64,000 nucleotides of DNA, taken from assembly GCF_009914755.1 (NCBI RefSeq), contig NC_060931.1, one strand, 5' to 3'. Made by a program: the position numbers and the translations under genes. Position 1 is the first letter of the stretch. Each line of letters starts with the position of its first letter. Shown here piece after piece: positions 39,597-49,084 of the stretch. This stretch comes from the human T2T-CHM13v2.0 reference genome, Homo sapiens. The notes beneath the pieces were generated by a model. That model was not told the DNA's origin. It made no database searches and saw nothing but the letters and a program-made list of their open reading frames with translations.

Positions 39597-39692
39597 ATGA
39601 TCTGGATGTTGCCTACCAAAAACTGAGTCAGCTCATTAGAGAATACCTTGGATTGACTGAGGAACCTGCCAAGAGTTTGGCTACAACTGCAG
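39597..39692 (+). CDS. LRGUK: LRGUK coding exon, end of GK domain (DDLDVAYQKLSQLIREYLGLTEEPAKSLATTA)
   Basis: ctttgctgcAG acceptor, gcag|GTact donor. 96 nt, phase 1/1. DDLxxAYxxL GK C-terminal helix. Confidence 0.95.
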
Positions 39693-45254: not shown

Positions 45255-45500
45255 ATTAATTTTATATTTTGGTTAAAAAGCATACCTTAACATAAAATTT
45301 GCCGTTTTAACCATTGTAAGTATACAATTCAATGGTACTAATTACATTTACAATGTTGTATAACCATCATCACTACCTATTTCCAAAATTTGTCATTACC
45401 CCAAACAGAAACTCTATACCCATTAATCTATTACTCCCCTCAACTCCTGGTAACCTCGAATCTACTTTCTTTTCTCTATGAGTTTGCCTACTCTCGATAT
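45255..45500 (-). mobile_element. L1MB fragment
   Basis: cataaaatttgccgttttaaccatt...attaccccaaacagaaactct...tctatgagtttgcctactct. Confidence 0.75.
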
Positions 45501-45527
45501 TTTCACAGTTTTATTTTTCAATTTAAC

Positions 45528-48403
45528 CTTGTTTCTTGTCTAAGCTAGTATTTCAGTTTATAACAGTTATAAACTAGGGAGTTCCAAATGATGAACAGGA
45601 CACCCCCTCAGAAACTGCACCAAGAGGGAAGCCTTTCTTTGTTCCCACCTGTCCCGCCCTCTCCCTAGAGAACACCGGTTTGATGGGATGCAAAGGGTGC
45701 GTGTCCAGACCAGGGGCTCAGTGAGAACCCAGCAGTGCAAGCTCATCCTGCGTCAGTGGAGGGGATCGGGGGCTGGGAGCCTGGTTTGCCTCTGGGGAAT
45801 GGATCACTCCAAGGTCACCTCAGAGGTCTGATTTGGGTTGGAGTCTCTGAGTATCAGATCTCCCCCAAAGTGAGCTGAGACTAGCTTCTTCAAGGCTGTT
45901 CCAGTCTGGTGTGCCACCTCTGACTGCTCCACATTTCAGAGCTATGCCCTTAGGACTGGGGTAAGATGGTATTTGGGCCCCCAGAATCCGTCTAGTGAAC
46001 AAGCGCTCACTGAACAAGTGCCTGCTGGATGATGGCGTCTGTGAGACTGTCCCAGAGATCAGTCACTCTGAGAACTTGCCATCAACACCAAGTTGACACC
46101 TCTGTGTAACACCAGCATTGCTAGTGGCCTCTGAGAGCCATTTTTGAAGGCAAGGTAGATGTGGAAGCCCAAGAGGAGGCCTGGGGATGTGAGTGCGGGA
46201 ATAGCAGCCTGGATGGGGGTCCTCAGGAGCAGCTGTTCTGAGCCATGGTGCCTTGTGATTCTGTCCGGCCGATTCTTTCCTTCCTTCTTACATTCATCAC
46301 CCATTTCCTCAGTTCCTGCCCCTTTGCCAGGTATTGGTGAACAGACATAACTCTTCACAGAGCTCACGGCTTATATAAGAGGGCTGCCGTTAAATAAGGA
46401 AACAAACAAATGGGATTTCATCTGGCTTGGATGTCCATCCTCTAGTTTCTACCATCAAAAACAGCATTGATCTCTAAGTTGGTAAAAATTTAAAGTCTCA
46501 TTCACTTGGAAAATGTCTCACCACCCACAAATCTGGATGTAAATTTTGGTTCTATGAATAAGAACCAGACATAAACCTCTTATGTTTATTCATTGAAGTT
46601 TATGTTTTCAGTTGACTAAAATTGTTCTAAGTTCCACTAAATGAGAGAATTATAGACACTTAGTATCTCCAAGGAGAAGGGAAGGTTAAGTTCTCCTATA
46701 TGTGTAATTTTATTCCTTTCAAGGGCCTATGTGCATCTAACAGGGGAAAGATGTTTTTCTTATTAATTTCTAAGCAGTTAGTTAACTTCTGTTTATAGTT
46801 AATTTCTTTTTATATTAAAGCAGGAGCTCCCGCTAGCAAGAAGACTGTCTCTGGGGTGCCAGCACACCTGGTTCCATCTCCCAGGTGCTTGGCGAAACTG
46901 CAAGCAGATGGCCAGATGACAGAGCATCTCTCTGGAATGCAAATTCATGCCAAGCACCTAGAAAATCAGAGCGTAACTCCTGCCCAGAACCAAGAGCTGG
47001 CTCAGGATGGAGAAACCCATCAAAAAGAGCTTTCTCCTGACAGCCATCTCAATCCTGAGCTCCCTCAACACCTCAGTTCATCAGCACTGGGTCTTCCTCA
47101 GCAGGCCCAGGACCTATCCCTAAACCCAACGGAAGAGGATGTCCAACAATCAGATCTTCCCCTAAAACAAATAGCCACTGAGACAGATGTCCCTGAGATG
47201 GAAGCCAGTGAGGTTGGGCAGTCTCCCATCACCCCGACCCTGGTGCCTCCTGTGCACCCTTCCCCTCCCTCGTCCCGCAGCCCTCAGCCAGGCCAGGACA
47301 AGGAGTCAGGGGAGGCCCAGGTAACCCCTACTGGCCCTCCTCTGTCTGAACCTCTACAGGGACCTGGCCCCACTCCCCTCAGCCCTCAGAGAATTCAGGA
47401 TGAGGAAATTGAGTCAGACAAACTTCCACCCAGCAGTTCCCACCATGATCCTCCAAAAGATTCTTCCCACACTGACTTGGTGCAGAAACTTGCTGGCGAT
47501 TCTCAGCAAGCTCTGAAGGAGGAAACCTCCAAACCGGAAGCCATCCGAGTCAGTATCCCTCACCCAGAACTGCCACATCCCCAAGACTTAGCAACAGATA
47601 CCAAGCAGCCCCAGGCCAGGGGAGCCCCGGGGACCTTGCTTCCTAGAAGCCGGCTGGCTCCCACTCGGCTGCCCCAGCCTCAGGTGCTGGCTCCCCTCCA
47701 GAGCAGGAGGCCCACACCCAAACTCCTATCGCCCAGCAGGGAAGAGGCTTTAGGAACAACCTCCCATCAAACCATGACGGTCTCTCCCAGGCTTCCACCA
47801 ACCCGGGAAGCAGACACCAGTAAACTTCCTCCCATCAGCCCTCCGCACTCAAAACCACCACCAAATCTGAGCCCCCAGGCAGCCCACAGTCTTCAGCAAG
47901 TCCAGGAAGAGAAGGTCAGTGAGGTGAAACTCCCTCTTATCAGTCCCCCCAGCCAGGAGCAAGCAGAACCTCGCATCCTCAGTCCCGCCCAGGAGGAGGC
48001 GGCTCAGAAAGTGAGGCTCCCTCGCATTCCTGCTCCTCTTCCGGAGCCAGGGCTGCCCCAGAACTCGGGGACTCAGCCTGATCCAAGGCCTGCAAAGGAA
48101 AGGAAAGCTCCCCAAGCAGGCAGCTCCTCCAGGAGGAAGATTCCAGACATGCGGGCCTCACCCCACAACCAGGGGCCACTTCAGCAGACAGGGGCTAGGG
48201 AAAAAAAGCTCCCCAACCAGAAAGGGACGGCTAGAGGACTGGCACCTCTGGAAGAGGCACCACCTGGGAACCACCAGCCAGCCTTGCAGCTAGAACCCCA
48301 CGATCAGCCAGCTCCCACCATGGTGCCCGACGATCCCAACCCCAGCCCTCCTCTTGTTTCTTGTCTAAGCTAGTATTTCAGTGTGTAACTGTTACAAATT
48401 AGG
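45528..48403 (+). repeat. 51-bp dispersed duplication (45528-45578 intronic; 48353-48403 exonic), 46/51 identical
   Basis: First 30 nt identical: cttgtttcttgtctaagctagtatttcagt. Confidence 0.95.
46824..48373 (+). CDS. LRGUK: Alternative terminal coding exon of LRGUK, ~516-aa Pro/Gln/Ser/Glu-rich disordered C-terminus (GAPASKKTVSGVPAHLVPSPR...PSPPLVSCLS*)
   Basis: tttctttttatattaaAGcAG acceptor. Phase 1 joins the donor at 39692 in frame with the 505-codon ORF 46856-48373. Sharp GC rise at the acceptor; no repeat signature. Confidence 0.8.
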
Positions 48404-49084
48404 CCATCTGAGCAACCAGAGAAGCAAAGTCCATACACCAGAAATTCCTGAGCCGCCCCACGCCGAGCCATCACCTAAGACCCCCAATTACAAGAAGATT
48501 AAAAAAAACATAATTCCAGGAAAAGGACCCATACCAACCTCCCCACAAATGACCTGGCTTGGAATGTAGATGTGTCCAAACAAGGGCCATCTTGTAAGAG
48601 AGAGATTTTTGGAGGGTTATCTCAAGAAAATAAAACTCCCGTCAATGGTGATCAGCCAGCTCAGGAGGGCCAGCCCTCACCCGGGAGACCTCTCCAGAGG
48701 GAAAAGGCCCCTGCGGAGTCGCTACAGGATAGCTCGGCTCCTGTGGAGCATCCAGGGAGAAAGGGACAGGTTCATCGAAAGGGCAGGTCTCAGAGGAGAG
48801 AGATTGCTTCGCAATCCCCAGAGCAGGACAGTGAGCCCCCAACCCAGCAGCCTGTCAAAGACACACCAGCCCATCAGGGGAGAGGTCAGGCCAGAGAGAG
48901 CTCTGTCCAAAGGCACAATGCACTTGCTTCCAAGCAGCAAACCAAAGAGAAGCGAACCTGAAAACATGGGGCAGTGCCACAGGACAAAAGCCCCGCCACT
49001 CCCCAGAACCAGGTGTCTACTGTGGAGCAGGGCAGCTGGAAGGGAAGACTGCGCCCCAGGAGCAGTCAGAGCACCAAGGTTTAA
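48404..49084 (+). pseudogene. Decayed in-frame continuation of the alternative terminal exon (now 3' UTR), ~227 codons
   Basis: Same frame as 46856-48373 and similar composition (PSEQPEKQSP...QEGQPSPGRPLQREKAP...RSSQSTKV*). Internal stops only at 48449 TGA, 48476 TAA, 48500 TAA, 48959 TGA; no frameshift needed. Confidence 0.7.

What the first reader, a model, noticed from the sequence alone, without database searches (positions are those of the whole stretch)
45528..49084. A 51-bp intron-templated insertion appears to have created the stop codon of LRGUK's long alternative C-terminus
Seen: the TAG ending the large exon (48371-48373) lies inside a 51-nt AT-rich block (48353-48403) that matches intron sequence 2.8 kb upstream (45528-45578) at 46/51 positions, with the first 30 identical. 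The block fits the AT-rich intron but is foreign to the GC-rich Pro-coding exon. It starts on a codon boundary and is 17 codons long, so removing it joins ...PNPSPP directly to PSEQPEKQSP... in frame. Inference: a local templated insertion (template switching or polymerase-theta-type repair) truncated the protein and added the new end LVSCLS*. Established: a premature stop in a last exon escapes nonsense-mediated decay, so a truncated isoform could persist.
Basis: partly seen in the sequence, partly recalled or inferred. Interest (0 to 1): 0.85.

Follow-up and report, generated by a model that had tools for sequence, protein, structure and literature searches.

The report
Intron-copied insert ends LRGUK long isoform
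A 51-base piece of intron was copied into a coding exon of the sperm-assembly gene LRGUK in an ancestor of apes and Old World monkeys, and it supplies the stop codon that cuts off a protein tail of about 220 residues that most other placental mammals keep.

Summary
Window 48353-48403 matches 45528-45578 at 46 of 51 bases, the first 30 identical. It is the only such pair in the whole T2T genome. The exon TAG at 48371-48373 lies inside it.

Orthologous proteins show the exon copy is derived. Pan, Pongo and Macaca models end ...PSPPLVSCLS. Two strepsirrhines and many other placentals read on about 220 residues to a conserved ...GRLRARGSQSTKV end. The human DNA still holds that tail as a decayed relic, down to the ancestral TAA at 49082-49084.

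After the block its frame stops 15 codons later, at TGA 48449. The ancestral frame is shifted by +1. The net length change against outgroups is +46 nt, not 51. A 1-nt deletion and two more stops lie downstream.

New World monkeys and gibbons have separate upstream frameshifts, so it is not shown that the insertion was the first truncating lesion.

This is a fixed templated insertion of a known kind. It is closest to class 2 templated sequence insertions. The enzyme and the template type, DNA or RNA, are unresolved. Interest is moderate.

The parts
45528..45578 (+). Intronic donor copy of the 51-nt block
   Evidence: It lies in unique sequence and its GC of 0.29 matches the local intron at 0.30.
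45555..45575 (+). Perfect 21-nt palindrome (10-nt arms, 1-nt centre) inside the donor; all 5 differences between the copies fall here
   Evidence: One search gives the palindrome and the mismatch positions 31, 33, 38, 43 and 47. In one search the donor folds at -4.9 kcal/mol (z -2.54) and the exon copy at -2.3 (z -0.04).
45287..45502 (+). Old L1-like dispersed-repeat fragment next to the donor; it does not include the block
   Evidence: In one search, 38 of the 40 scored hits cover only query 1-104. One search gives the alignment. In one search nhmmer gives E 1.6e-53 for 45287-45502 with no extension.
46821..48373 (+). Coding part of the long alternative last exon (acceptors 46821 and 46824), ending ...PNPSPPLVSCLS*
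   Evidence: In one search, 81 orthologous LRGUK proteins cover it.
48353..48403 (+). Inserted 51-nt block, the exon copy
   Evidence: It is absent from outgroup proteins.
48371..48373 (+). TAG, the present stop codon of the long isoform, inside the block
48404..48407 (+). Four bases (CCAT) between the block and the resumption of recognisable ancestral coding. They may be filler from the event or a remnant of altered ancestral sequence; this is unresolved.
   Evidence: Inference.
48405..48479 (+). Relic of the ancestral tail, read in the +1 frame relative to the upstream ORF
   Evidence: 15 of 23 identical to horse residues 1140-1162, E 6e-8.
48479..48480 (+). Inferred 1-nt deletion (K-D junction, AAG GAC read as AAGAC) that returns the relic to the upstream frame
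   Evidence: Inference from the three-frame translation and the outgroup ...PKDPQ....
48482..49081 (+). Relic of the ancestral tail in the upstream frame, with in-frame TAA 48500-48502 and TGA 48959-48961
   Evidence: tblastn of Nycticebus 176 of 361 and Equus 200 of 363, running to 49081. and one search give the stops.
49082..49084 (+). TAA at the position of the ancestral stop, after ...GRLRPRSSQSTKV

Best explanation
In a primate ancestor, after the split from strepsirrhines and before the common ancestor of apes and Old World monkeys, a break or stalled synthesis occurred in the large alternative last exon of LRGUK. It was patched with a direct copy of 51 nt taken from the gene's own intron, 2,825 nt upstream on the same strand.

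The patch carries TAG in the reading frame, so the long isoform now ends ...PSPPLVSCLS. The event, or small later indels, also shifted the frame by +1. The net change is +46 nt against the spacing implied by outgroup proteins.

The roughly 680 nt downstream encoded a tail of about 220 residues that is conserved across placentals and ends GRLRARGSQSTKV. It became 3' UTR and has since picked up a 1-nt deletion and two nonsense codons.

Shown: the copy, its uniqueness, its derived state in the exon, the shared stop in catarrhine models, and the relic tail.

Inferred: the direction (intron to exon), the repair-patch mechanism, and that the junction was complex. The features fit a break repaired with a templated patch, as in class 2 templated sequence insertions or end joining with templated synthesis. 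They do not fit transposition, gene conversion or L1-driven insertion.
For: The pair is unique, with sharp 51-nt borders.

The exon copy is derived. Of the 89 proteins held, 9 end in LVSCLS: 1 Pan, 4 Pongo, 2 Macaca and 2 unnamed. A further 56 end in the GRLRARGSQSTKV-type motif: 49 by a strict pattern, plus 7 that I judged by eye from the same listing to differ by one residue. These 56 include the strepsirrhines Nycticebus (P0022) and Microcebus (P0085), and also afrotherians, xenarthrans, rodents, carnivores and ungulates.

The relic tail aligns to outgroup tails down to the ancestral stop (176 of 361 and 200 of 363).

The block's composition fits the intron and not the exon.

There is no target-site duplication of 5 nt or more, no poly(A) and no flanking homology. 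These are the junction features that passages of PMC5110952 give for class 2 insertions.

The copies differ at 5 of 51 sites (Jukes-Cantor 0.105). With recalled neutral rates this is compatible with tens of millions of years, and so with sharing by macaque and human.
Against: No non-human DNA could be read. Presence of the donor in outgroups, the pre-insertion junction, and presence of the block in New World monkeys or tarsiers are all untested.

The +46-nt net change means the event was not a simple 51-nt insertion, or that later indels blurred it.

New World monkey models (Callithrix, Sapajus) stop about 120 codons upstream through a shared frameshift, and a gibbon model has another. The end of this exon is therefore eroding in anthropoids generally, and the insertion could have landed in a tail that was already disabled.

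The long exon evolves fast: 491 of 510 residues are identical between human and Pan, against 348 of 349 for the upstream exons. Its function in catarrhines is therefore uncertain.

All primate evidence rests on predicted protein models.
Confidence: 0.8

Rival explanations
1. Passenger insertion. The tail had already been disabled in an anthropoid ancestor by another lesion, such as the TAA at 48500, the 1-nt deletion at 48479/80, or relaxed selection. The templated insertion came later and only moved the stop 43 codons upstream.
For: New World monkeys and gibbons truncate independently upstream. The long exon evolves at a near-neutral-looking pace in catarrhines. The relic holds several lesions whose order is unknown.
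Against: The block is the most upstream lesion, and the Pan, Pongo and Macaca models share it. The relic has only about 3 further lesions in 680 nt, so nothing demands an earlier one.
Confidence: 0.3
2. RNA-templated patch. The insert was reverse-transcribed from LRGUK pre-mRNA or an excised intron and used to fill a break, as proposed for class 2 templated sequence insertions.
For: Donor and target lie in one transcription unit, in the same orientation. The donor is intronic and left intact. PMC5110952 (passages) reports intronic templates and evidence for RNA intermediates.
Against: Nothing in the sequence tells an RNA template from a DNA one. The 2.8-kb proximity in cis is explained equally well by DNA template switching.
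Confidence: 0.25
3. The 51-mer is part of a dispersed repeat that landed independently at both sites.
For: An L1-like fragment lies 25 nt upstream of the donor.
Against: There are only two copies genome-wide. A profile of 12 family members covers 45287-45502 and does not extend into the block. A profile of the family's continuation gave no hit in the intron stretch and a best E of 2 on the exon stretch, which is not significant.
Confidence: 0.02
4. The exon copy is the original and the intron copy was derived from it, or non-allelic gene conversion occurred between pre-existing homologous segments.
For: Neither copy can be polarised from human DNA alone.
Against: All 56 outgroup proteins with the tail motif lack the block. 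The block is AT-rich like the intron. Homology ends abruptly at both borders, so there is no substrate for conversion.
Confidence: 0.03

Closest known systems
Class 2 templated sequence insertions (TSI/TSIP; Onozawa and Aplan, PMC5110952, passages read)
   Same: A patch copied from elsewhere with the donor left intact. There is no target-site duplication, no poly(A) and no L1 endonuclease site. The junction shows signs of microdeletion or filler (net +46 nt, four unexplained bases). The donor is intronic and transcribed, and the event is heritable.
   Different: The donor is only 2.8 kb away in the same gene rather than distant. The insertion is shared by the ape and Old World monkey models rather than polymorphic. 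No evidence here bears on an RNA intermediate.
Polymerase-theta end joining with templated insertions (PMC7165422 and PMC4490562: search listing only)
   Same: A direct-orientation copy of nearby sequence at a repaired break, probably with loss of a few bases. A 2-nt CT overlap is possible at the left junction.
   Different: From recall, typical templated inserts are shorter and copied from much closer to the break. Microhomology cannot be scored without the pre-insertion sequence.
MMBIR templated insertions (MMB-TI; PMC8421209, passages read)
   Same: A germline-transmissible templated insertion of 25 nt or more. About 100 such events per person are reported (n = 103 and 99).
   Different: That class is defined there as inverted copies of templates within 100 bp. 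This one is direct and 2,825 nt away.
Short-range template switching at inverted repeats (PMC8604942 and PMC5453318: listing and start of abstract only)
   Same: All 5 differences between the copies lie in the donor's 21-nt palindrome. They include a mirrored complementary pair (A>G with T>C) and a flipped centre base (A>T). That is the arm-homogenisation and spacer-inversion pattern named in the PMC8604942 abstract.
   Different: This concerns only the later divergence of the copies, or errors made while copying. It does not explain the 2.8-kb copy itself. The support is post hoc (P 0.0087).
LRGUK-1, the characterised isoform (PMC4363142, passages read)
   Same: Same gene and same N-terminal LRR and guanylate-kinase-like region, up to exon 39597-39692.
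   Different: LRGUK-1 (93 kDa) uses the downstream exons. The long-exon isoform is not among the three mouse variants described in the passages I saw: about 1,130 aa in catarrhine models, and mostly 1,200-1,360 aa in other placental models that end in the tail motif.

Membership tests
Class 2 templated sequence insertion (DSB patch) | Inserted sequence is templated from another genomic site, which stays intact | tested here: met
   46 of 51 identity to 45528-45578, which is still present. The pair is unique in the genome.
Class 2 templated sequence insertion (DSB patch) | No target-site duplication of 5 bp or more, no poly(A) tract, no TTTT/A target | tested here: met
   The flanks CCCTCCT | block | CCATCTGAGC share at most 2 nt. 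The block ends ...AAATTAGG.
Class 2 templated sequence insertion (DSB patch) | End-joining scars at the junction (microdeletion, microhomology, non-templated bases) | tested here: inconclusive
   The net +46 nt and the four unexplained bases fit, but the pre-insertion DNA sequence is unknown. Later indels could give the same picture.
Class 2 templated sequence insertion (DSB patch) | Template derived from RNA | not testable with these tools
   The sequence cannot tell an RNA template from a DNA one.
Class 1 TSIP / L1 ORF2-mediated insertion | Target-site duplication, poly(A) tail, TTTT/A site | tested here: not met
   None of the three is present.
MMBIR templated insertion (MMB-TI as defined in PMC8421209) | Inverted copy of a template within 100 bp, flanked by microhomology | tested here: not met
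   The copy is direct and 2,825 nt away.
Polymerase-theta-mediated templated insertion | Microhomology between the primer end and the template flank, and at re-annealing | tested here: inconclusive
   CT is possible on the left and nothing on the right. The ancestral junction is needed.
Dispersed repeat / transposable element copies | Many related copies in the genome, or a match to a repeat family | tested here: not met
   There are 2 copies only. The L1-like profile stops at 45502. No repeat library was on hand.
Non-allelic gene conversion | Homologous flanks around the converted tract | tested here: not met
   The BLAST borders fall exactly at the 51 nt.
LRGUK long C-terminal isoform of placental mammals | The exon is spliced in frame after the guanylate-kinase-like region and is orthologous to the extension in other mammals | tested here: met
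   One search shows the phase. In one search, 81 proteins hit at E <= 0.001; the 59 best-ranked non-primate placental models (P0010-P0068) are 44-64% identical over 93-100% of the query, while a further 7 placental models cover only 25-99% of it.
LRGUK long C-terminal isoform of placental mammals | Conserved C-terminal end ...GRLRARGSQSTKV | tested here: not met
   The human ORF ends LVSCLS. The motif survives only as an untranslated relic, GRLRPRSSQSTKV, at 49043-49081.

The most novel reading that the evidence does not exclude
The copy-paste insertion was the founding lesion. It removed a placental-conserved module of about 220 residues, ending in a basic GRLRARGSQSTKV motif, from the long LRGUK isoform in the catarrhine or anthropoid stem. 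New World monkeys and gibbons then shed the same region by separate frameshifts. Anthropoids would thus have repeatedly remodelled the C-terminus of a sperm-assembly protein. In addition, the palindrome-confined, mirror-symmetric differences between donor and copy would record hairpin-driven template switching during or after the copying.
Probability: 0.25. Interest if true: 0.6.

Novelty: new member of a known kind. Interest (0 to 1): 0.45.

Why it matters
This is a clean, datable example of a templated insertion with an identifiable local donor. It became fixed and defines the stop codon of a predicted protein isoform in apes and Old World monkeys, removing a tail that most other placentals keep.

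It gives a concrete case for studying how break-repair patches reshape coding sequence. It also flags an uncharacterised long LRGUK isoform whose C-terminal module differs between primates and the rodent models used to study this male-fertility gene.

The mutational class is known, the isoform is only predicted, and the region evolves fast. The interest is therefore moderate rather than high.

Tried and rejected
1. Dispersed-repeat origin. Genome-wide pattern and BLAST searches and a profile built from 12 copies of the neighbouring L1-like family gave no support.

2. Dating with New World monkeys or tarsier. The three protein searches gave only New World monkey models that stop upstream, and no tarsier. 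The date stays bracketed between the strepsirrhine split and the catarrhine ancestor.

3. Tail search with the Nycticebus tail. It gave 15 proteins and no further primates.

4. A single template-switch history that would turn one palindrome version into the other. I worked this by hand from the arm sequences printed; no call tested it. No single event fits.

6. A search for LRGUK + primates + stop codon found 0 papers.

7. I checked LVSCLS by eye for a CaaX-type prenylation box. The cysteine is third from the end, not fourth, so I dropped the idea. The motif definition is recalled.

8. Inverted match 46170-46192 against 48334-48356 across the left junction (20 of 23). It is low-complexity polypyrimidine/polypurine and I did not pursue it.
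Full report
**1. The observation**

Window 45528-45578 and 48353-48403 are a 51-nt direct repeat with 46 matches, the first 30 identical. Chance is excluded.
- The 30-mer with up to 3 mismatches occurs twice in the window, and 0 of 100 dinucleotide-preserving shuffles gave two matches.
- With up to 2 mismatches it occurs at exactly these two places in the 3.1-Gb assembly that holds the window.
- BLAST of 61 nt, 217 nt and 361 nt around either copy returns only the query itself and its partner. The borders fall exactly at the 51 nt.

The exon copy has GC 0.33 inside an exon of GC 0.58. The donor has GC 0.29 in intron of GC 0.30.

**2. The gene context**

The open frame 46799-48373 (524 codons from stop to stop) is entered in phase from exon 39597-39692 through a tandem pair of acceptors at 46821 and 46824. 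It gives an alternative C-terminus of about 517 residues that ends ...PNPSPPLVSCLS. The TAG at 48371-48373 lies in the block.

A protein search with this exon found 81 LRGUK proteins at E <= 0.001 among the 8000 candidates scored. The exon is therefore an orthologous part of a long LRGUK isoform across mammals.

The one functional paper I read in passages (PMC4363142) describes three mouse variants with LRGUK-1 (93 kDa) as the longest. The long-exon form does not appear in those passages.

**3. Which copy is derived**

I held 89 proteins and sorted them by C-terminus.
- 9 end in LVSCLS: 1 Pan, 4 Pongo, 2 Macaca and 2 unnamed 485-residue entries identical or nearly identical to human.
- 49 end in a strict GRLRARGSQ-type motif. 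Another 7 differ from it by one residue, which I judged by eye from the same listing. That makes 56 of 89.
- The other 24 are partial models, other isoforms, marsupials, a monotreme, New World monkeys and a gibbon.

The 56 include two strepsirrhines (Nycticebus P0022, Microcebus P0085), afrotherians, xenarthrans, rodents, a rabbit, carnivores, bats and ungulates. At the site of the block they read straight on, for example PSPP-LNPRGNQRGK... in Microcebus and PSPP-QSPGGNQRRKVHTPE... in horse. They continue about 215-225 residues to ...GRLRARGSQSTKV.

So the exon copy is an insertion on the lineage to catarrhines. It arose after the strepsirrhine split and before the ape/Old World monkey ancestor. 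The intron-to-exon direction is inferred from this, from composition, and from the lack of any third copy. The presence of the donor in outgroups could not be tested, because no non-human DNA is reachable with these tools.

**4. The relic tail**

Tails of Nycticebus and horse align by tblastn to the human DNA right through the block and on to 49081 (176 of 361 and 200 of 363 identical, E 4e-100 and 1e-127). The TAA at 49082-49084 follows, after ...GRLRPRSSQSTKV.

It also shows that the former coding tail is still recognisable in what is now 3' UTR.

**5.

Deleting the 51 nt joins PSPP to PSEQPEKQSPYTRNS and then TGA at 48449. Further stops in that frame are at 48476, 48500 and 48959.

The stretch just after the block is homologous to outgroups in the +1 frame. 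48405-48479 reads HLSNQRSKVHTPEIPEPPHAEPSPK, which matches horse residues 1140-1162 at 15 of 23 (E 6e-8).

From the last PP codon to the NQ codons, human has 61 nt where outgroup proteins imply 15 nt. The net change is +46 nt, which is not a multiple of three. Two readings fit:
- The event was a complex insertion-deletion: 51 templated nt with about 5 nt lost, or 51 + 4 filler nt followed by a separate 9-nt loss.
- Small indels accumulated afterwards.

At 48479/80 one G of the K-D junction (outgroups ...PKDPQ...) is missing. This returns the relic to the upstream frame. In the ancestral frame the later lesions are TAA 48500 and TGA 48959.

This amount of decay in 680 nt is of the order expected for tens of millions of years without selection. 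That is my estimate, using recalled rates.

**6. Age from the copies themselves**

Five differences in 51 nt give a Jukes-Cantor distance of 0.105. With recalled neutral rates of roughly 1-2.2e-9 per site per year on each copy, this is about 24-52 million years. The error is very wide, but the range is compatible with sharing by macaque and human.

**7. An unexpected detail**

The donor contains a perfect 21-nt palindrome at 45555-45575, with 10-nt arms around one centre base. All five differences between the copies lie inside it. The probability for a given 21 of 51 positions is 0.0087, a post hoc figure.

Three of the five differences are a mirrored complementary pair (A>G with T>C, which keeps a 6+1+6 palindrome in the exon copy) and a flipped centre base (A>T). 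As single-stranded DNA the donor folds at -4.9 kcal/mol (z -2.54; 4 of 200 shuffles fold as well). The exon copy folds at -2.3 (z -0.04; 94 of 200).

Arm homogenisation and spacer inversion by template switching at inverted repeats is a described process (PMC8604942 and PMC5453318: listing and start of abstract only). The pattern may reflect hairpin-prone copying or later palindrome-driven mutation. I could not find a single event that converts one version into the other.

**8. Rivals**

Dispersed repeat. An old L1-like fragment lies just upstream of the donor. Of the 40 scored hits to 45400-45720, 38 cover only 45400-45503.
- A profile from 12 family copies matches 45287-45502 (E 1.6e-53) and stops there.
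- A profile of the family's continuation gave no hit in the intron stretch; its best hits, on the exon stretch, had E 2 and 2.7.
- This rival is rejected within the sensitivity of these searches. No repeat library was on hand.

Gene conversion. It is rejected for lack of flanking homology.

L1-mediated insertion. It is rejected: there is no target-site duplication, no poly(A) and no TTTT/A site.

The passenger rival stays open.
- Callithrix and Sapajus models both end ...PVP(L/P)RRRRLRK. This is the +1 frame of human 47951 onward, which reads ...VPPRRRRLRK and then a stop. New World monkeys therefore share an independent frameshift about 120 codons upstream.
- A siamang model is frameshifted at the A-run near 48205. 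That one could be an assembly error.
- The long exon is 96.3% identical between human and Pan (491 of 510) and 88.4% between human and Macaca (450 of 509). The upstream exons are 99.7% (348 of 349) and 94.8% (331 of 349).
- Against seven outgroups, the relic is 0 to 13 points less conserved than the still-open part.
- The region is therefore weakly constrained, and the order of the lesions is unknown.

**9. Mechanism and family**

Passages of PMC5110952 define class 2 templated sequence insertions. They have no target-site duplication or poly(A); they show microdeletion, microhomology or non-templated bases at the junction; the donors are intact, often transcribed and sometimes intronic; and the events are heritable. 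This case fits those features. It differs in that the donor is only 2.8 kb away in cis and the insertion is shared by the ape and Old World monkey models.

MMBIR insertions as defined in PMC8421209 (passages) are inverted copies of templates within 100 bp. That definition is not met.

Polymerase-theta templated insertion remains possible. From recall, such inserts are usually shorter and copied from closer, and microhomology cannot be scored without the ancestral junction.

The statement that a stop in a last exon escapes nonsense-mediated decay is established knowledge. It applies here because the annotated exon runs to 50779 as a terminal exon (annotation table given with the task).

**10. 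Verdict**

The finding is real and mostly read correctly. A local intron-templated insertion supplies the stop of the long LRGUK isoform in catarrhines and cuts off a tail conserved in other placentals.

- The insertion is not a clean in-frame event.
- The frame does not reopen when the block is removed.
- It is not shown that the insertion was the first truncating lesion.
- The enzyme is not identified.

I found no paper that mentions this (0 papers for LRGUK + primates + stop codon). Supplements were not examined. It is a new instance of a known mutational kind.

Noticed in passing
window 47951-48014 (human), proteins P0009 and P0089: Callithrix and Sapajus LRGUK models share an end, ...PVP(L/P)RRRRLRK. 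It equals the +1 frame of the human exon here. New World monkeys therefore carry their own frameshift truncation about 120 codons upstream of the block.
   Followed up: partly
window ~48197-48215, protein P0007: The siamang model shifts frame at the A-run (GGGAAAAAAAGC) and ends 28 residues later. It is either a real gibbon truncation or a homopolymer assembly error.
   Followed up: partly
proteins P0013 (Ursus americanus), P0017 (Sciurus vulgaris), P0008 (Daubentonia, partial): Three further models depart or end at the very residue where the block sits. The bear reads ...PNLSPN-LIKCLVQSERHNSRNRFFF, the squirrel ends at ...PVPP and the aye-aye at ...PSPPL. This could be an annotation artefact, or a sign that the polypyrimidine site is recurrently hit.
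   Followed up: no
window 46170-46192 vs 48334-48356: A 23-nt inverted match (20 of 23) lies between intron and the exon sequence spanning the left junction of the block, including its first 4 bases. It is low-complexity and possibly chance.
   Followed up: no
window 46821 / 46824: There is a tandem NAGNAG acceptor (AAAG|CAG|GAG). The two annotated exon starts differ by one alanine codon, and both are in frame.
   Followed up: yes
window 45287-45502: An old L1-like repeat fragment with many genomic relatives at 72-91% identity ends 25 nt before the donor block.
   Followed up: yes
window 46823-48352: The long exon evolves much faster than the domain-coding exons: 19 of 510 against 1 of 349 residue differences between human and Pan. 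It also holds degenerate internal direct repeats (47267, 47369 and 47876; 48096 and 48197).
   Followed up: partly
proteins P0082, P0083: Two unnamed 485-residue database proteins are 100% and 99% identical to the tested human stretch (the last 187 residues of the exon ORF), and both end in LVSCLS.
   Followed up: no
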